Below the pieces are notes generated by a model. That model worked only from the letters and a program-made list of their open reading frames with translations, ran no database searches and was not told where the DNA came from. 64,000 nt of DNA from the sequence record PZ445487.1; one strand, 5' to 3'. Every line of letters begins with the position of its first letter. Within the stretch, counting starts at the first letter, position 1. This DNA is from a phage. Positions 28,470-34,050 of this stretch are shown here, in pieces. A program made the position numbers and the translations under genes.

Positions 28470-29187
28470 TCGTGAAGGGATTAAACTCACACCAGAACTT
28501 CTGAAGTCACATATTGCTGAAGTGATTTATGAAGACCGTGAAGTTGGTGGTCACCGCGTCATTACATGCCATTTCAAGATGGACAATGGGTTCGTTGTGT
28601 GGGGTAAGAATAGTTCCACATCGGTAGACCCTGCCAACTTCGATGAAGAAATAGGCAAGCAGCTGGCCTATGAAAAGACCCTTTCTCAACTGTGGGAACT
28701 GGAAGCATATCGCGCGATAGTAGAAAAGCAGATCATCGATGTGTCCGCCAAAGATGATAAGATCAACATTGATGAATATGTGTCAGAAAGGGAAGCGATA
28801 CATGAGATGGGTGGTTTTGAATTCCTTGAGGGTAAAGGACAATCCGTCGTGTTTCGTCATCCCAAGGATCCAAGTCGGGGATTTCGAGTTGAATTTGTTC
28901 GCACCGATAATGAACGTTATGACGAACGGCGTAATGGTGAAGCAAGATCTTTGGTGGAAGCGTATCTTCGCTCGTTTATGACTTCTGAAGATCTAAATTC
29001 TGAACTTGTCTTGCGTTTGGCGAAAACGTGTAATGCTGCTTCAGGGGATTATCCGTGGTGTGACCTGTCAGAAGAAAAACGCCAAGCAGCTTGTGATCGT
29101 GTTAAGAAATTCTTGTTAGATCCGAAAGCCCAACCTGGTGATTCCGTGGGGGCGCTGTATAGAGCCATCGTGGTGTCATACTTGTAA
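28462..29187 (+). CDS. Hypothetical protein (241 aa), N-terminal Gp49-like region
   Basis: LTPELLKSHIAEV...HRVITCHFKMDNGFVVWG resembles a conserved phage family I recall as Gp49-like; low certainty. Confidence 0.4.
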   Translation: MGNREGIKLTPELLKSHIAEVIYEDREVGGHRVITCHFKMDNGFVVWGKNSSTSVDPANFDEEIGKQLAYEKTLSQLWELEAYRAIVEKQIIDVSAKDDKINIDEYVSEREAIHEMGGFEFLEGKGQSVVFRHPKDPSRGFRVEFVRTDNERYDERRNGEARSLVEAYLRSFMTSEDLNSELVLRLAKTCNAASGDYPWCDLSEEKRQAACDRVKKFLLDPKAQPGDSVGALYRAIVVSYL

Positions 29188-29454
29188 TTCTTCAAAAGTC
29201 TTTCAAAATCAATAACGTCCGGCAAATTGCTGGGCGTTTCAATTAACAAGCCAAGGTATAATGGCCCAATTGTAAAGCGAGGGAAATTACTTTGCCCAAA
29301 CCATTTTTGCGTTCAGGAGTTGACTCTCTTGACTCACAGTTTAAACCCAGCGAAGTTTTAATTCAACAGATTGAAACTAATCGCGAATTCATAGAACACA
29401 TGCTGGCGAAGCCGGAAGGTGAAGCCGTCCATACCACTAAAGAAGGTAATAACG

Positions 29455-31671
29455 ATGATTGAATCATTAACATTTAAGAATGCGGTTGCGACCGTCGCGC
29501 CGTCTAACCATGTAATCGTTGTGGATATCTCCGGTTCCATGTATCGTTCACTTCCAGAAGTCCGTAAGCATCTGAAGGAGAACCTGCCTTCCCTGGTGAA
29601 ACCGGAAGATACTGTGAGCATCCTTTACTTTTCATCTCGCGGTGATTTCGGAACGGTATTTGCCGGACGTCAGATTAACAGTGCAACTGATCTCAGTGAG
29701 ATCAATAATTTAATTGACCGTTTCCTGAAGCCTTCTGGTTGTACTGGTTTTGTTGAGCCGCTGAAATTGGCTGCGGAAACTGCCATTAGCTTGAATAAAC
29801 CTGGTTATGTTAATAACCTGGCATTCATGACCGACGGATATGACAACTGCTGGCGTTCTAATGAAATCCTGGATGCCGCTGAAGTACTGCCCAAAGCGTT
29901 TGATAACATTACCTTCATCGAATACGGTTGGTATTGTAATCGCGAACTGCTGGCGCTAATGGCAGAACGTTCTGGTGCGACCCACGTATTCGCCGAAGGC
30001 CAGAATGAATATCAGACCGAATTGGAAAACGTGCTAAAAACTTCTTCACCGAAAGTGGTGGTCGATGTTCCCCTGGTTTACACCCATGCCATTTATGTTG
30101 AAAATGGCGTGGCGACTGTTTTAGCTGTGCATCCTGATGAAGAGCACCCTATTGGCCACGTCAGCATCCCTGAAAGCGTTTCTCAGCTGTGGGTTGTAAA
30201 CCCCAACATGATCGACCAGCTGGATAATCTGGCAGACATCCAAGCGGCATACGTGCTGGCATTTTACGGCGTGTATACCATGGACGCAGATTTGGTTTGG
30301 GCTGCGCTGAAGAAAACGGGTGACGTCCGCTTCATCAAACAATACAGCAACTGTTTCACCAAGCAGGATTACTCCAACATCAAAGTCGATCTGACTCAGG
30401 CTATCGTAGACGAATCTCTGCGAGGAGTTGATGGCATCGATTATAATATGGTTCCGGCTGAAGACGCCACCACCATTGTTGATGTTCTGACGTATTTGGC
30501 TGAAGCAGATGTCTCTATCGTCACCAAGCATCCGCTATTCTCTTACAAGAGCATTGGGCGCGGTACTATACAAAAAGTTGACGACACCGAAGACAAGTTG
30601 GCCGAAGAGATTGCGAATGCGACTTCTAAAGAAGAGCGTAAAGCCCTGGCGCTCAAACTGGCCGAGCACGAAGATTGGACGCCGGAATTCAATCCAGCAG
30701 ATGATAAAGGGATTGTCCCGATCAGCAATTTGGTCTATAATTCAGAACGTCCTAACATCAGTGTGCAGACAGTTCAACACGGAACGGTTATTGTGCCTGA
30801 GTTTGTACAGAAGAAATATGAACTTCCTGAAGAGCTGGGAACCTGGCGTTATCGCAATTACACCATTGTCAAGGATGGTATCATCAACCTGAAAACAATG
30901 CCTATCACTGCAGATTCTCCGATTGTTCGGGCTAAGGTGGCACAGGATTTGACTGCCATGGGTGTTCATGTGTTTGGTGGGCCGGAAGTCTTCATTGTAA
31001 ATCTGGAAAGTGTCCCAATGGTTAACCGCGCCATGACAAAGAATATCAGTGCTGCTGAATTCTTTGCAGACAATGTGCGCCGTGAAGCATTGAAGGCAAA
31101 GCAAAAAGTTCTGAAATTCTACCGTGATGAACTGGTTGGCAAAGGCAACGCTACTGGTCTGGCTTCAAAATATGGCAAAGAAGCGGCTGATTTCCTGTCA
31201 GCAAACGGCATTCGCGACTATGGATTTTCACCGAAGACTTCTTCTGTAGAATCAACCGATGTCTATATGAGTCGTGAATTGAATGTGAAAATCAAAGGCG
31301 CATCTTCACTGCCGAGCATCGCGTCTGTTATCAAAAAACAGACGGACGGTAAAAAACTGAATGTCGCTGATCAGCTGATCGCTAATGCCCTGGCCGAATA
31401 CAATGCGTTTGTTAAATCGCCGATGATCACCAGCGTACCGGAAGAGACTCAGAAAAAGCTGATCGAAAGTTGGATTGGTGATGCAGCAAAAGCAGCTATC
31501 AACGAAGTTCGATCTCTGAACAAAACGCTGTCCAAGGTAGTTTATGGGATTGTTGCAGGCCATGGTTGGTTTACCGACCTGGATTTGGAAGAATCCACTA
31601 TGGATGTGGAAGTTGATGGGGTGAAATACACTGTCACTGCCGAACTGGCTGAAAAAGAAGTCAAAATCTAA
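29455..31671 (+). CDS. von Willebrand factor A (vWA) domain protein (738 aa)
   Basis: N-terminus carries the MIDAS motif in VIVVDISGSMY (DxSxS) with downstream T and D positions typical of vWA; about 550 aa of unassigned sequence follow. SD aagaagg before ATG 29455. Confidence 0.55.
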   Translation: MIESLTFKNAVATVAPSNHVIVVDISGSMYRSLPEVRKHLKENLPSLVKPEDTVSILYFSSRGDFGTVFAGRQINSATDLSEINNLIDRFLKPSGCTGFVEPLKLAAETAISLNKPGYVNNLAFMTDGYDNCWRSNEILDAAEVLPKAFDNITFIEYGWYCNRELLALMAERSGATHVFAEGQNEYQTELENVLKTSSPKVVVDVPLVYTHAIYVENGVATVLAVHPDEEHPIGHVSIPESVSQLWVVNPNMIDQLDNLADIQAAYVLAFYGVYTMDADLVWAALKKTGDVRFIKQYSNCFTKQDYSNIKVDLTQAIVDESLRGVDGIDYNMVPAEDATTIVDVLTYLAEADVSIVTKHPLFSYKSIGRGTIQKVDDTEDKLAEEIANATSKEERKALALKLAEHEDWTPEFNPADDKGIVPISNLVYNSERPNISVQTVQHGTVIVPEFVQKKYELPEELGTWRYRNYTIVKDGIINLKTMPITADSPIVRAKVAQDLTAMGVHVFGGPEVFIVNLESVPMVNRAMTKNISAAEFFADNVRREALKAKQKVLKFYRDELVGKGNATGLASKYGKEAADFLSANGIRDYGFSPKTSSVESTDVYMSRELNVKIKGASSLPSIASVIKKQTDGKKLNVADQLIANALAEYNAFVKSPMITSVPEETQKKLIESWIGDAAKAAINEVRSLNKTLSKVVYGIVAGHGWFTDLDLEESTMDVEVDGVKYTVTAELAEKEVKI

Positions 31672-31679
31672 ATTCAACT

Positions 31680-31700
31680 GGCGGGGAAACCCGCCTTCAT
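31680..31700 (+). terminator. Rho-independent terminator after the vWA gene
   Basis: ggcgggg-aaa-cccgcc then ttcatttt. Confidence 0.5.
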
Positions 31701-31714
31701 TTTGAGATATGCTT

Positions 31715-32026
31715 ATGTCAAACAAACCAACTTATGTTGAAGTAATGCGTGTTCTGGCTCAGTACGCTTGTGACAACCTGAACATGGAAACTTGGCGCAA
31801 CGGGGATCACAAGGACAAGTTTGATAACATTGATGATAATATCGATGCTTTAGCGCCGTTACGGGTTAAGAATGATCTCGGCGGTGACGATCTTGACATG
31901 ATTGAGCTGGTCATGGAAATCGAAGAAGAGTACGATGTAGAAATTAGTGACGAGTGGGTGGGTAAACATGGAGATGATCCTACCCTCGGAGAGTTAGCTG
32001 AACTCGTCGTTGCCCTGCGCAAGTAA
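31715..32026 (+). CDS. Acyl carrier protein-like protein with Asp in place of the phosphopantetheine-attachment Ser
   Basis: DLGGDDLDMIELVMEIEEEYDVEISDE aligns to the ACP core DLGADSLD(T/M)VELVMALEEEF...I.DE, but the modified Ser is D (codon gat). Confidence 0.5.
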   Translation: MSNKPTYVEVMRVLAQYACDNLNMETWRNGDHKDKFDNIDDNIDALAPLRVKNDLGGDDLDMIELVMEIEEEYDVEISDEWVGKHGDDPTLGELAELVVALRK

Positions 32027-32032
32027 CTGAAG

Positions 32033-32059
32033 ATCCCCAACAAACGTTGGGGATTTTTA
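32033..32059 (+). terminator. Rho-independent terminator
   Basis: atccccaac-aaac-gttggggat followed by ttttt. Confidence 0.55.
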
Positions 32060-32068
32060 CTTTTAGGG

Positions 32069-32098
32069 GTTTACTTCTATAAGGCAAATGCGTATTAT
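32069..32098 (+). promoter_or_regulatory. Sigma70-type early promoter
   Basis: -35 gtttac, 18-nt spacer, -10 tattat, about 50 nt upstream of the ATG at 32150. Confidence 0.45.
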
Positions 32099-32149
32099 TC
32101 AATAACTGGCGAACGATGGGTTCACCAGGTTGAAAGGTAAGATTATATC

Positions 32150-32389
32150 ATGAAGAACAAAATGGTAGAAACTTCAGTGGAGATTGATCGTAATTGGGGC
32201 TTGCTCCGCGCTAAAGGGTTCCGTCGTGTGTATGCGACCAAAGAAGTATATGCCCAGCGCCGCGATGTTATCATCAGCAAGAAGGGAAAAGATTGGGTTG
32301 CCGAAGAAGTCGATGTCGAAACAGGCGTCGTCGGAAAGGTGAAAGCCAAGGCCGCGATCCTCTTCGCTCTTCTGAAGCACATCAGTTAA
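32150..32389 (+). CDS. Hypothetical basic protein (79 aa)
   Basis: ORF with RBS aaggtaag upstream. Confidence 0.45.
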   Translation: MKNKMVETSVEIDRNWGLLRAKGFRRVYATKEVYAQRRDVIISKKGKDWVAEEVDVETGVVGKVKAKAAILFALLKHIS

Positions 32390-32405
32390 TTCTATAACTT
32401 AGGGT

Positions 32406-32448
32406 GGGGTATGATTACCCCGCCTATTTGAAATGAAGGAAATACATC
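32406..32448 (+). promoter_or_regulatory. Conserved 5' leader: hairpin plus atttgaaatgaaggaaatacatc
   Basis: Hairpin ggggta-tgat-tacccc followed by the conserved leader; nearly identical to the element at 32962..33007. Confidence 0.45.
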
Positions 32449-32955
32449 ATGACCGATCAACAAATTCAAGATTTATTTTACCTCGTCCATGATAAGTCCC
32501 ACATCATGCGCCCTGGCACTGTTTCCCCTGCCATCCGTGGTCTGGTGCAAGAATTACGCGAACCGCAGATGACCACACTTTATCGCGGGTTGCCTAAAGA
32601 GGACGTTGCGCGTTTGGAGATGATGTTTGAACGAGGAGACATGTTTCAGACATGGGATTCTTGTCTTAGTTTCAGCGAACTGAAGCATGTGGCCAAACAA
32701 TTTTCTAAATCGTATGGAACCAAAGCTGTTGCCCGCATTTGTTATAAACATCGAAACGGACTCCCAGAGGGGCTTAATGTCTTTGGTTCTCTAGAAAAAT
32801 TTGTGAACAAAGGCGATGAATCAGAAATGGATATGCTGGACTTGGCGTCCATGGAGAAAGAATGGATATTCTGTCAGCCTCGCGTCTTCCCAGTTTCAAG
32901 AAAAATGGCAACAGATGGGACGATGGTTTTTACCGTATCACTTGTTACCCTATAA
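32449..32955 (+). CDS. Putative ADP-ribosyltransferase (ModA/ModB-like)
   Basis: R-S-ExE arrangement: LYRGLP (Arg), WDSCLSFS (Ser motif), EKEWIF (ExE) in the order and spacing of T4 ModA as I recall it; 168 aa. Confidence 0.4.
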   Translation: MTDQQIQDLFYLVHDKSHIMRPGTVSPAIRGLVQELREPQMTTLYRGLPKEDVARLEMMFERGDMFQTWDSCLSFSELKHVAKQFSKSYGTKAVARICYKHRNGLPEGLNVFGSLEKFVNKGDESEMDMLDLASMEKEWIFCQPRVFPVSRKMATDGTMVFTVSLVTL

Positions 32956-32961
32956 ACCCAC

Positions 32962-33007
32962 GGCGGGGTATCTTTGCCCCGCCCATTTGAAATGAAGGAA
33001 CTATATC
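32962..33007 (+). promoter_or_regulatory. Conserved 5' leader: hairpin plus atttgaaatgaaggaactatatc (second copy)
   Basis: Hairpin ggcgggg-tatctttg-ccccgcc plus leader; the downstream gene also begins MTDQ. Confidence 0.45.
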
Positions 33008-33286
33008 ATGACAGATCAAAGAAGTATTGCTCGTTCGGAAATCAAAGATATTATACAGAGCAAAACCAACGAAACTCATGCTCAATCCAGAATGCTATCT
33101 CGATTTGTTGAAATTAAGTTTGACATTGAAGAGAATAACAATCGGAGAGCGCTGGAGGGAATGTTGGCGATTATCTTGGGCCATGTCACCAATTCAGCAT
33201 ACGACATGGATGATTTAACTCGTTTGTTGAACGCCCAGAATAACGTTGGGAATTCTGTTCGCGAATTGCTGTTTAAGTCCGAATGA
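33008..33286 (+). CDS. Hypothetical protein (92 aa)
   Basis: Shares leader and first four codons (MTDQ) with 32449..32955; the rest is unrelated. Confidence 0.45.
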   Translation: MTDQRSIARSEIKDIIQSKTNETHAQSRMLSRFVEIKFDIEENNNRRALEGMLAIILGHVTNSAYDMDDLTRLLNAQNNVGNSVRELLFKSE

Positions 33287-33323
33287 ACTAACTAAGGGAT
33301 AATCCTATATCCCGAGGTGTGTC

Positions 33324-33773
33324 ATGTTCCTTACATCCTTTATTGACTGGATGAATATCATAAATGGCCTGAGGATTCCTGTTGGGAACCTCGGGCTTTC
33401 TCGTTCTTCTATGCCGCAAATCGATGCCGACAAACAAGAAGATTTTCACAAATATCTTGAAGACAACGGCGTGTCCATAGATGCTGCGCAAGTGCCCATC
33501 AAAATGCTTCGTCTTACCCAGAACGAAATCAATAAAATGAAGGTCTGGAAGATTATGAAGCAGATCAGAAATAAGAAGCCCATGGGTCGAGTTTGGGTGT
33601 CTTCTGACAATTACGTTGTTGACGGGTCTCACCGATTTGTCGCTGCGTTGAACATGGACGGCAAACAGCGCATGAAGGTCTACAAAGTTGATTTGCCAGC
33701 GATGGAATTTGTTAAACTCGCTAAACAGTTTCAGGGTGTGCGATACAGAACGGTCTCAGATTCGAGATACTAA
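33324..33773 (+). CDS. ParB/sulfiredoxin-like nuclease-domain protein
   Basis: YVVDGSHRFVAA matches the ParB N-terminal domain signature (x-DG-HR-xA). Confidence 0.45.
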   Translation: MFLTSFIDWMNIINGLRIPVGNLGLSRSSMPQIDADKQEDFHKYLEDNGVSIDAAQVPIKMLRLTQNEINKMKVWKIMKQIRNKKPMGRVWVSSDNYVVDGSHRFVAALNMDGKQRMKVYKVDLPAMEFVKLAKQFQGVRYRTVSDSRY

Positions 33774-33774
33774 T

Positions 33775-34050
33775 ATGGACGTCTATTCAGAACTTATCGA
33801 AATAGGAGCGAAACGTCATTTCGTAAACAAATATCTTTCGCTCATTTCTTCTTTTAGTCATTACCAAGGCGTCGGGGAGAAGCACCTATTGAAAGGTAAG
33901 ACGAGAGGGGAAGCCCTGAAACAAGTATTCGGTTCCAATGACGCAGAAATTTGGGCACAGGTTCGGCCAATTATTCTACGGTTGGATAACGGTTGGGACC
34001 CTTTAACTTGCGAAAAATGGGTTAATCGTTATGGGGTGGAATACCAGTAA
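33775..34050 (+). CDS. Hypothetical protein (91 aa)
   Basis: Internal ATG of track ORF 33688..34050 chosen to avoid overlap. Confidence 0.35.
   Translation: MDVYSELIEIGAKRHFVNKYLSLISSFSHYQGVGEKHLLKGKTRGEALKQVFGSNDAEIWAQVRPIILRLDNGWDPLTCEKWVNRYGVEYQ

What the first reader, a model, noticed from the sequence alone, without database searches (positions are those of the whole stretch)
31715..32026. ACP-like protein whose phosphopantetheine-attachment serine is replaced by aspartate
The 104-aa protein has a clear acyl carrier protein helix II signature, but the invariant Ser of the DSL motif is Asp (DLGGDDLD). Such a protein could not be phosphopantetheinylated and might act as a mimic or decoy for ACP-binding host proteins. 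The gene is isolated between two terminators and followed by an early promoter. I know of no described equivalent, though I cannot search.
Basis: partly seen in the sequence, partly recalled or inferred. Interest (0 to 1): 0.65.

Follow-up and report, generated by a model that had tools for sequence, protein, structure and literature searches.

The report
Phage carrier-protein look-alike lacking attachment serine
Phage CBA120 and all its relatives examined encode a small protein with the fold and docking helix of the bacterial acyl carrier protein, but with aspartate or glutamate where the cofactor must attach, so it cannot carry fatty acids and most likely works by binding other proteins.

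Summary
The window is Escherichia phage CBA120. The ORF at 31715-32026 (+) is orf142/CBA120_gp112, which RefSeq names "acyl carrier protein".

- **ACP fold:** it passes Pfam PP-binding. Its AlphaFold model (pLDDT 86.8) matches only ACPs in the PDB.
- **Missing serine:** Asp59 (GAT, 31889-31891) aligns with the phosphopantetheinyl-serine of solved holo-ACP.
- **Lineage-wide:** every Ackermannviridae lineage I examined has D or E there and never S. This covers 38 clusters of close homologues, 8 full-length divergent relatives, the phiMAM1 group and an unannotated ORF in Erwinia phage Bue1.
- **Under constraint:** dN/dS within Kuttervirus is mostly 0.03-0.09. The partner-recognition residues of helix II are invariant.
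- **No cofactor machinery:** no transferase or fatty-acid enzyme is annotated in the genome.

So it is a conserved ACP-fold protein that cannot be a carrier and must act by protein binding.

What it binds is not shown. My leading inference is a host protein that accepts cofactor-free ACP, such as PlsB, MukB or AcpS. The main rival is the 738-aa vWA protein encoded just upstream, which has an invariant MIDAS site and is a neighbour throughout the family.

Serine-less ACPs are known in apicomplexan mitochondria. I found none described for a phage. I rate it a new variant of a known kind, of moderate interest.

The parts
31715..32026 (+). orf142 / CBA120_gp112 (YP_004957815.1). A 103-aa ACP-fold protein, pI 4.16, with 26 D+E and 10 K+R. 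The stop codon is 32024-32026.
   Evidence: ORF and annotation. (profile and PDB matches). (model and fold search). (composition). (dN/dS mostly 0.03-0.09).
31889..31891 (+). Codon GAT = Asp59, at the position of the phosphopantetheine-attachment Ser (Ser36 of E. coli AcpP).
   Evidence: sequence. (BLASTP against AcpP). (opposite the modified Ser 'X' of 1f80_D). (D or E in all family members).
31886..31933 (+). Residues 58-73 (DDLDMIELVMEIEEEY), the ACP recognition helix II. The equivalents of AcpP D35, L37, V40 (as Ile), E41, M44 and E47 are invariant in 17 divergent phage sequences. The D38 equivalent is kept in 16 of 17.
   Evidence: (helix 59-73). The role of helix II is taken from PMC3340395.
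31955..31984 (+). Residues 81-90 (WVGKHGDDPT), a family-specific insertion between helix III and helix IV. It has invariant W81, G83 and D87-D88-P89-T90 in 39 sequences and is absent from AcpP.
31680..31703 (+). GC hairpin GGCGGG-GAAA-CCCGCC plus TTCATTTT, lying between the vWA stop codon and the orf142 start. Divergent relatives have a hairpin at the same place with a different stem sequence, but some lack the T-run.
   Evidence: The alignment was not in structural register, so I make no formal covariation claim.
32033..32058 (+). Intrinsic-terminator-like hairpin ATCCCCAAC-AAAC-GTTGGGGAT followed by TTTT. It ends the transcription unit and is conserved in relatives.
   Evidence: The simple scanner did not list it. 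RNAfold does fold it.
32070..32098 (+). Sigma-70-like promoter TTTACT-17-TATTAT for the next unit (orf141 onwards). The motif TTTAC..TAT[AT]ATTCAA occurs once in the window, and related forms occur in three of the four relatives; the fourth locus ends just after its terminator.
29455..31671 (+). orf143, a 738-aa vWA-domain protein with an invariant MIDAS motif (D24xS26xS28, T97, D127). It is the conserved upstream neighbour and a candidate partner.
   Evidence: Synteny is shown.

Best explanation
orf142 is a stable, strongly acidic four-helix ACP-fold protein that can never receive 4'-phosphopantetheine, because the attachment Ser is Asp (Glu in many relatives). It therefore carries no acyl groups and must work purely by protein-protein binding.

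It keeps the acidic and hydrophobic 'recognition helix' that bacterial type II ACP uses to dock on basic patches of its client proteins. My preferred mechanism is that, during infection, it occupies the ACP-docking site of one or more host proteins that accept cofactor-free ACP. Candidates are the glycerol-3-phosphate acyltransferase PlsB (inhibited by apo-ACP), the MukB condensin neck (bound equally by apo- and holo-AcpP) and the holo-ACP synthase AcpS. Binding would block or re-tune that protein.

The carboxylate at position 59 replaces Ser as the N-cap of helix II. It may also partly imitate the phosphate of the cofactor arm.

**Shown here:** the fold, the loss of Ser, conservation of the docking residues, purifying selection, and family-wide distribution.

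**Inferred:** that the binding partner is a host ACP client, and which one.
For: - **Fold and homology:**
- **Ser replaced by Asp** at the exact attachment site.
- **D/E and never S** in 38 clusters of close homologues, in the 8 full-length divergent relatives P0039-P0043, P0045, P0047 and P0049, in the Miltonvirus phiMAM1 group and in Erwinia phage Bue1.
- **Distribution:** tblastn finds the gene full-length in 271 phage records.
- **Purifying selection:** dN/dS is 0.03-0.09 in 13 of 14 computable pairs within Kuttervirus. The one near-identical pair gives 0.24, and one pair is saturated.
- **Docking residues kept:** the equivalents of AcpP D35, L37, V40, E41, M44 and E47 are invariant, and those of D38, I54 and D56 are kept in 16 of 17, while helix I and the long loop diverge freely. 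Helix II, and its central L42-V43-M44 in particular, mediates ACP recognition by fatty-acid enzymes and SpoT (PMC3340395).
- **No alternative attachment site:** there is no other conserved Ser.
- **No cofactor machinery:** no phosphopantetheinyl transferase, FAS enzyme or acyltransferase is annotated anywhere in CBA120.
[quoted passage not shown] Apo- and holo-AcpP stimulate MukB equally (PMC8602292). Phages are known to target MukBEF (PMC7617805, listed). A Ser-less ACP works as a pure binding subunit in Plasmodium (PMC8547962).
- **Genomic setting:** the gene lies among small, mostly uncharacterised genes, next to an ADP-ribosyltransferase-like gene and a superinfection-exclusion gene. That is typical of a host-takeover region.
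Against: - No interaction was tested, and no complex prediction was possible with the tools left.
- The protein is no closer to the host's AcpP (28.6 bits) than to B. subtilis ACP (36.4 bits). There is therefore no sign of host-specific mimicry.
- It carries family-specific invariant features that AcpP lacks: W81, G83 and the DDPT motif, plus a loop about 25 residues longer. These point to a partner of its own.
- It is almost always encoded directly after a vWA/MIDAS protein, which suggests a phage partner instead.
- D and E are good helix N-terminal residues (my own knowledge of helix capping). Their conservation therefore need not mean phosphate mimicry.
- Host AcpP is very abundant, at 0.25% of soluble protein (PMC3896788). 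A competitor would need high expression or high affinity.
Confidence: 0.42

Rival explanations
1. The protein is a dedicated ligand or subunit of the phage's own 738-aa vWA protein (orf143). The exposed carboxylate of D/E59, at the tip where the cofactor arm would normally emerge, completes metal coordination at the invariant MIDAS site, as acidic ligand residues do for integrin I-domains. The two proteins would then act as one module of still unknown role.
For: - The gene order vWA then ACP-like, with a gap of about 40-50 nt, holds in CBA120 and in all divergent Ackermannviridae-like contigs examined. It also holds in Erwinia phage Bue1, where the ACP-like ORF is unannotated.
- The two genes lie in one transcription unit that ends at a strong terminator.
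- The MIDAS motif DxSxS/T/D is invariant across 58 vWA homologues.
- The residue replacing Ser is always acidic.
- The ACP-like protein has family-specific invariant residues that a pure AcpP mimic would not need.
- Both proteins were detected, one peptide each, in the Sajous1 proteome (PMC10892097).
Against: - vWA homologues at 46-49% identity occur in Straboviridae (Klebsiella phage Miro). More distant ones occur in AR9 and Shewanella phage Thanatos-1, and a 65%-identical one in an Aeromonas-associated contig. None of these has an ACP-like gene within 3 kb.
- In phiMAM1 three genes separate the pair.
- The vWA protein evolves much more slowly than the ACP-like protein in the same genome pair: 82% against 41.6% identity for CRW-SP2.
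- A hairpin, in some genomes with a T-run, separates the two genes.
- No interaction was predicted or measured.
- The role of acidic ligands at MIDAS sites is taken from my general knowledge of integrins. It was not tested here.
Confidence: 0.27
2. It is a general polyanionic or nucleic-acid-mimicking protein, for example an anti-restriction or anti-defence decoy. In this reading it merely re-uses the compact acidic ACP scaffold, and the ACP-client docking surface plays no part.
For: - It is strongly acidic: pI 4.16, with 26 D+E against 10 K+R in 103 aa.
- Phages use small acidic mimics against host machines, including MukBEF (PMC7617805, listed).
- It lies in a host-takeover-type region.
- The N-terminal half evolves fast.
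Against: - The residues that stay invariant are precisely the ACP helix II signature, hydrophobic L37, V40 and M44 equivalents included. It is not just overall charge that is kept.
- There is no match to any PADLOC model.
- Nothing in the fold searches resembles known DNA mimics. Every listed PDB hit is an ACP.
Confidence: 0.1
3. It is still a true carrier protein, loaded at another residue or by an unconventional chemistry.
For: It retains a full ACP fold and passes the Pfam PP-binding threshold. It is annotated 'acyl carrier protein' in many records.
Against: - Phosphopantetheinyl transfer needs the Ser hydroxyl, and even S36T AcpP is unmodified and non-functional (PMC3340395).
- The protein has only two Ser (S2, S78), and S78 is not conserved.
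- All NCBIfam ACP models score below their cut-offs.
- No transferase or acyl-ACP-using enzyme is annotated in the genome.
Confidence: 0.03
4. It is a decaying, functionless remnant of a captured host acpP gene.
For: It has lost the catalytic Ser, and no function is known.
Against: - dN/dS is mostly 0.03-0.09.
- The gene is full-length in 271 phage records, and ACP-like copies occur in six named genera.
- 31 columns are invariant across 39 sequences.
- The AF2 fold is confident.
Confidence: 0.01

Closest known systems
Bacterial type II fatty-acid-synthase acyl carrier protein (E. coli AcpP, B. subtilis AcpA; Pfam PF00550 PP-binding)
   Same: - Four-helix fold, with target-normalised TM-scores of about 0.75.
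- The DLG.D.LD..E.VM..EE motif of helix II: 19/31 identical to AcpP and 36 bits to B. subtilis ACP.
- Strong acidity.
   Different: - The attachment Ser is Asp or Glu in the whole family.
- It is 103 aa against 78 aa, with a loop about 25 residues longer between helices I and II that contains extra short helices.
- It has an invariant W-x-G...DDPT insertion before helix IV.
- It scores below every NCBIfam ACP cut-off.
- It is phage-encoded, with no transferase or FAS genes nearby.
Apicomplexan mitochondrial ACP lacking the conserved Ser (Plasmodium falciparum mACP; PMC8547962)
   Same: It has an ACP fold with the Ser replaced. It cannot be modified and functions, in Plasmodium demonstrably, as a cofactor-independent binding subunit. 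Acidic helix II residues are retained.
   Different: - In Plasmodium the Ser is replaced by a hydrophobic Phe that inserts into the LYR protein Isd11. Toxoplasma has Cys or Gly. Here the replacement is always acidic.
- No LYR-type partner is known here.
- The setting is viral rather than organellar, and the origin is independent.
- That paper found no Ser-less ACP outside Apicomplexa and one chromerid when searching with its own query.
Apo-ACP (unmodified E. coli AcpP) as an inhibitor
   Same: It is a cofactor-free ACP with an intact docking helix. [quoted passage not shown] Apo-AcpP binds and stimulates MukB like holo-AcpP (PMC8602292).
   Different: Apo-ACP is a transient precursor that AcpS converts to holo-ACP. 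The phage protein is permanently 'apo' and carries extra family-specific surface features. Its effect on any of these targets is untested.
Other phage-encoded ACPs (for example phrog_5934; phage ACP predicted to bind host FabZ in bioRxiv 10.64898/2026.03.01.708874)
   Same: They are small ACP-fold proteins encoded by phages and annotated as auxiliary metabolic genes.
   Different: At least some other phage ACPs keep the DSL serine, for example P0057 (DLGGDSLD) from an unrelated phage contig. The Ackermannviridae family does not.

Membership tests
Acyl carrier protein / PP-binding (PF00550) | Profile match above the curated threshold | tested here: met
   Pfam PP-binding scores 30.8 bits against a gathering score of 20.8, E = 3.6e-7, over residues 54-98 only. 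By contrast, all 13 NCBIfam ACP models score below their cut-offs; the best is 40.5 against 71.
Acyl carrier protein / PP-binding (PF00550) | Four-helix-bundle ACP fold | tested here: met
   The AF2 model has pLDDT 86.8 and pTM 0.80, with helices at 7-21, 59-73, 79-84 and 91-101. All 50 listed Foldseek PDB hits are ACPs, most with target-normalised TM-scores of 0.65-0.77.
Acyl carrier protein / PP-binding (PF00550) | Conserved Ser of the D-S-L motif at the N-terminus of helix II, the 4'-phosphopantetheine attachment site | tested here: not met
   Asp59 (GAT, 31889-31891) is aligned to Ser36 of AcpP and to the modified Ser 'X' of holo-ACP 1f80_D. All family members have D or E and none has S.
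Acyl carrier protein / PP-binding (PF00550) | Is phosphopantetheinylated and carries acyl thioesters | not testable with these tools
   This needs mass spectrometry or an AcpS/Sfp labelling assay. Chemically it is excluded at position 59, and S36T AcpP is already unmodified (PMC3340395).
Acyl carrier protein / PP-binding (PF00550) | Cognate transferase or acyl-ACP-using enzymes in the same genome or operon | tested here: not met
   The RefSeq annotation of the whole CBA120 genome names none. Many genes are 'hypothetical', so this negative result is soft.
PHROG phrog_4154 (phage 'acyl carrier protein') | Full-length profile match | tested here: met
   E = 9.4e-57, covering residues 1-103 of the protein and positions 1-108 of 108 in the profile.
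Cofactor-independent Ser-less ACP (apicomplexan mACP type) | ACP homologue lacking the conserved Ser yet under functional constraint | tested here: met
Cofactor-independent Ser-less ACP (apicomplexan mACP type) | Binds an LYR-motif partner (Isd11) through the residue that replaces Ser | not tested
   No LYR-type partner was sought. The replacing residue here is acidic, not hydrophobic (PMC8547962). This is an analogy of mechanism only, not common descent.
Viral DNA-mimic / polyanionic decoy proteins | Surface carboxylates arranged like a DNA backbone; inhibition of DNA-binding host proteins | tested here: inconclusive
   Only bulk acidity could be measured, at pI 4.16. There were no PADLOC hits.

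The most novel reading that the evidence does not exclude
Ackermannviridae phages encode a permanent 'apo-ACP' decoy. It docks through the conserved ACP recognition helix onto a host hub protein that accepts unmodified ACP, such as the MukB condensin neck, PlsB or AcpS. That would shut down or redirect chromosome organisation or membrane-lipid synthesis during takeover. It would be the first viral mimic of acyl carrier protein. The always-acidic residue at the cofactor site would stand in for the cofactor's phosphate.
Probability: 0.3. Interest if true: 0.75.

Novelty: new variant of a known kind. Interest (0 to 1): 0.52.

Why it matters
**Annotation.** Many phage genome records call this gene 'acyl carrier protein' or an auxiliary metabolic gene. 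The sequence shows it cannot carry anything, so that annotation misleads metabolic interpretations of these phages. Several of them are candidates for therapy or biocontrol against Salmonella, E. coli O157, Klebsiella and Dickeya.

**Biology.** Bacterial ACP is one of the most connected proteins in the cell, with partners in fatty-acid, lipid A and phospholipid synthesis as well as SpoT, MukB and IscS. A phage protein that keeps ACP's docking surface but is locked in an unmodifiable state would be a natural probe for which of those contacts matter. It could also be a lead for inhibiting them.

**A direct experiment.** The strict D/E rule at the cofactor site across deep divergence invites a D59S / D59A / D59E swap.

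Tried and rejected
- **Defence-system models:** the PADLOC scan of orf142 and orf143 found nothing.
- **RNA families:** the Rfam scan of 29000-34000 gave only a sub-threshold chance match, so the hairpins are not a known RNA family.
- **Literature:** five searches for any description of a Ser-less or mimic phage ACP found none. A search for Ackermannviridae transcriptomics to time the gene also found nothing usable.
- **vWA neighbour:**
  - The sequence search against the PDB gave no hits.
- **Hairpin covariation:** a MAFFT/RNAalifold attempt on the vWA/ACP intergenic hairpin failed because the alignment was out of structural register. I rely on the single-sequence folds and make no formal covariation claim.
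- **Origin of the family:** the last homology search, seeded with the shorter phiMAM1 protein, returned only three close relatives, all DELD.
- **Host-specific mimicry:** rejected, because B. subtilis ACP scores higher than E. coli AcpP.
- **Pseudogene or relic:** rejected by dN/dS and conservation.
- **Model inspection:** I could not examine side-chain geometry, the acyl pocket or the exposure of D59 and W81, because model coordinates are not exposed.

Full report
**Identity of the window and the gene.** A 2-kb stretch around the finding is 100% identical to Escherichia phage CBA120 (Kuttervirus, Ackermannviridae), in reverse orientation relative to NC_016570. The ORF at 31715-32026 (+) is orf142 / CBA120_gp112 / YP_004957815.1. 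The original GenBank record calls it a 'conserved hypothetical phage protein'. RefSeq and many sister genomes call it 'acyl carrier protein'. It encodes 103 aa from the ATG at 31715. An in-frame ATG at 31709 would add two residues.

**Checking the observation.** The motif DLGGDDLD is residues 54-61, and Asp59 is GAT at 31889-31891.
- The protein passes Pfam PP-binding (30.8 bits against a gathering score of 20.8, E = 3.6e-7). It narrowly misses PP-binding_2 (28.9 against 32).
- It matches phrog_4154 'acyl carrier protein' end to end (9.4e-57).
- It matches 63 solved ACP chains at E <= 0.01. B. subtilis ACP is best at 36.4 bits, and E. coli AcpP scores 28.6 bits.
- All NCBIfam ACP models are hit but stay below their curated cut-offs.
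- Independently, in the HMMER alignment to holo-ACP chain 1f80_D, the modified serine is printed as 'X' in DLGADXLD and lies exactly opposite Asp59.
- An AlphaFold2 model built on 39 family sequences is confident (pLDDT 86.8, pTM 0.80). It has the expected helices at 7-21, 59-73, 79-84 and 91-101, plus short extra helices in a long loop after helix I.
- All 50 listed Foldseek PDB matches are ACPs, most with target-normalised TM-scores of 0.65-0.77.

The observation therefore stands: this is an ACP-fold protein with Asp at the cofactor-attachment site.

**The missing serine is a fixed trait of the lineage.**
- All 38 clusters of close homologues read DLGGD[DE]LD or HLGGDELD, and none has Ser.
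- A profile search of 1.84 billion representatives found 8 further full-length relatives (P0039-P0043, P0045, P0047, P0049). Each has D or E at that position.
- The five whose sources I looked up come from Ackermannviridae-like phage contigs or from Salmonella phage CRW-SP2.
- The shorter 90-aa 'acyl carrier protein' of Serratia phage phiMAM1 (Miltonvirus) and its two relatives read FDELD.
- Erwinia phage Bue1 has an unannotated ORF directly after its vWA gene that reads MDELD.
- tblastn finds the gene full-length in 271 phage records, from phages of Salmonella, Klebsiella, Escherichia, Dickeya, Shigella, Enterobacter, Serratia and Yersinia.

**The gene is under strong constraint.**
- Within Kuttervirus, pairwise dN/dS is 0.03-0.09 in 13 of 14 computable pairs. 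The one near-identical pair gives 0.24.
- 31 columns are invariant across 39 sequences.
- Across 17 divergent members, the equivalents of AcpP D35, L37, V40 (as Ile), E41, M44 and E47 are invariant. Those of D38, I54 and D56 are kept in 16 of 17.
- Helix I and the long loop diverge freely.
- These conserved residues form ACP's recognition helix. That helix, with its central L42-V43-M44, mediates docking on fatty-acid enzymes and SpoT (PMC3340395).
- The family also has its own invariant signature, W81-x-G83 and D87-D88-P89-T90, in an insertion before helix IV that AcpP lacks.
- The protein is very acidic, with pI 4.16 and 26 D+E against 10 K+R. It has only two serines, and S78 is not conserved.

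**It cannot be a carrier.**
- The attachment Ser is absent.
- Even the S36T mutant of AcpP is unmodified and non-functional (PMC3340395).
- The RefSeq annotation of the entire CBA120 genome names no phosphopantetheinyl transferase, fatty-acid-synthesis enzyme or acyltransferase. That negative is soft, because many genes are 'hypothetical'.

**Genomic context.**
- orf142 is the last gene of a same-strand run. It sits 43 nt after orf143, a 738-aa protein with an N-terminal vWA domain.
- Between the two genes lies a GC hairpin at 31680-31695 followed by TTCATTTT.
- After orf142 comes a strong hairpin plus T-run at 32033-32058, then a sigma-70-like TTTACT-17-TATTAT at 32070-32098.
- Four divergent relatives show the same layout. 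Their upstream hairpins have different stem sequences, and two of them lack a T-run.
- The downstream terminator is kept in all four. The promoter motif is visible in three, and the fourth locus ends just after its terminator.
- I read this as co-transcription with the vWA gene through an attenuating or stabilising hairpin. The timing of expression is not established.

**The vWA neighbour.**
- The order vWA then ACP-like is conserved in every Ackermannviridae-like locus examined. The exception is phiMAM1, where three small genes intervene.
- The vWA protein has an invariant MIDAS motif (D24xS26xS28, T97, D127) across 58 homologues.
- It is far more widespread than the ACP-like gene, with 505 phage records.
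- In Klebsiella phage Miro (Straboviridae), Bacillus phage AR9, Shewanella phage Thanatos-1 and an Aeromonas-associated contig, it has no ACP-like gene within 3 kb.
- It also evolves much more slowly. For CRW-SP2 it is 82% identical, against 41.6% for the ACP-like protein.
- Both proteins were detected, one peptide each, in the Sajous1 proteome (PMC10892097).

**Mechanism.** What is shown is an unmodifiable ACP-fold protein whose docking helix is conserved under purifying selection. It follows that the protein acts by binding, not by carrying.

*Leading inference (confidence about 0.4).* It occupies the ACP site of host proteins that accept cofactor-free ACP.
- Apo-ACP inhibits glycerol-3-phosphate acyltransferase more strongly than holo-ACP, and producing it together with 'TesA stops growth (PMC3896788).
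- Apo- and holo-AcpP stimulate MukB ATPase equally (PMC8602292).
- Phages are already known to attack MukBEF with a mimic protein (PMC7617805, listed).
- AcpS is a third candidate. That it binds apo-ACP as its substrate is established knowledge of the enzyme, not tested here.
- SpoT is a poor candidate, because it does not bind apo-ACP (PMC3896788).

*Main rival (about 0.27).* The protein is the ligand or subunit of the vWA protein, with the always-acidic residue 59 completing the MIDAS metal site. The role of acidic ligands at MIDAS sites is my general knowledge of integrin I-domains and was not tested here.

*A sobering point for any 'phosphate mimic' reading.* Asp and Glu are favoured at helix N-termini. 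Their conservation may therefore simply preserve the capping role of Ser. This rests on general knowledge of helix capping and was not tested here.

*Minor rivals.* A generic polyanionic or DNA-mimic decoy (about 0.1), an unconventional carrier (0.03), and a relic (refuted).

**Comparison with what is known.**
- The closest family is bacterial type II ACP. The fold and the profile criteria are met, but the defining attachment Ser is tested and not met. The protein should not be filed as an acyl carrier protein.
- Functionally, the nearest precedent is the Ser-to-Phe mitochondrial ACP of Plasmodium, which works as a cofactor-independent subunit bound to Isd11. That paper found Ser-less ACPs only in Apicomplexa and one chromerid (PMC8547962).
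- The phage family differs in always using an acidic residue, in its insertions, and in being viral.
- Other phage ACPs exist, and at least one keeps the serine (P0057).
- I found no paper that mentions the missing serine of the Ackermannviridae protein.

**Verdict.** The decoy function is plausible but untested and has a serious rival in the neighbouring vWA protein. I rate the novelty as a new variant of a known kind, and the interest as moderate (0.52). The finding is clean, corrects a widespread annotation and is directly testable. The biological role remains inferred.

Noticed in passing
Proteins P0089, P0113, P0114, P0134, P0137, P0138, P0164, P0165, P0173 and P0185 (profile hits, not in the window): The profile search also returned non-phage-family ACP-like domains with D or E at the Ser position (D[DE]LD). 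At least ten of these proteins begin with a signal-peptide or lipoprotein-like N-terminus. Exported, serine-less ACP-like proteins therefore seem to be a recurrent bacterial theme. The hit list is biased towards D/E by the query profile.
   Followed up: partly
L012:5253-5612 (Erwinia phage vB_EamM-Bue1, MG973030): This is an uncalled ORF directly after the vWA gene. It encodes an ACP-like protein (…HFAMDELDYIEFIMELEDD…), and the family profile scores E = 1.2e-9. It appears to be missing from the gene calls.
   Followed up: yes
window 29455-31671 (+), orf143: This 738-aa protein has an N-terminal vWA domain with an invariant MIDAS motif, followed by beta-sandwich and helical domains of no recognised family. 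It occurs in 505 phage records spanning Ackermannviridae, Straboviridae, Bacillus phage AR9 and Rhizobium phages. Its function is unknown.
   Followed up: partly
window 31680-31695, and the same position in L002, L003, L005 and L008: A GC-rich hairpin lies between the vWA stop codon and the ACP-like start codon in all five divergent genomes. The stems differ in sequence (GGCGGG/CCCGCC, GCCGGGG/CCCGGC, GGGGGC/GCCCCC), and the trailing T-run is not always present. This may be an attenuator or an RNA-stability element rather than a plain terminator.
   Followed up: partly
L002:5027-7542 and L003:4987-7502: Two divergent relatives carry a phosphoribosyltransferase gene plus a NAPRTase gene (an NAD salvage pair). 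The pair is inserted between the gp49/66-family gene and the vWA gene, and CBA120 has nothing there.
   Followed up: no
window 32449-32955 (+), orf140: RefSeq names it 'RNA polymerase ADP-ribosylase'. The 168-aa protein matches only the last ~155 positions (1270-1425) of the 1480-position PHROG profile and has no Pfam hit, so the name rests on a partial match.
   Followed up: no
window 31709-31717: Two in-frame ATG codons (31709 and 31715) give 105-aa or 103-aa products. Sister genomes are annotated both ways. More distant relatives start at the position of the second ATG.
   Followed up: partly
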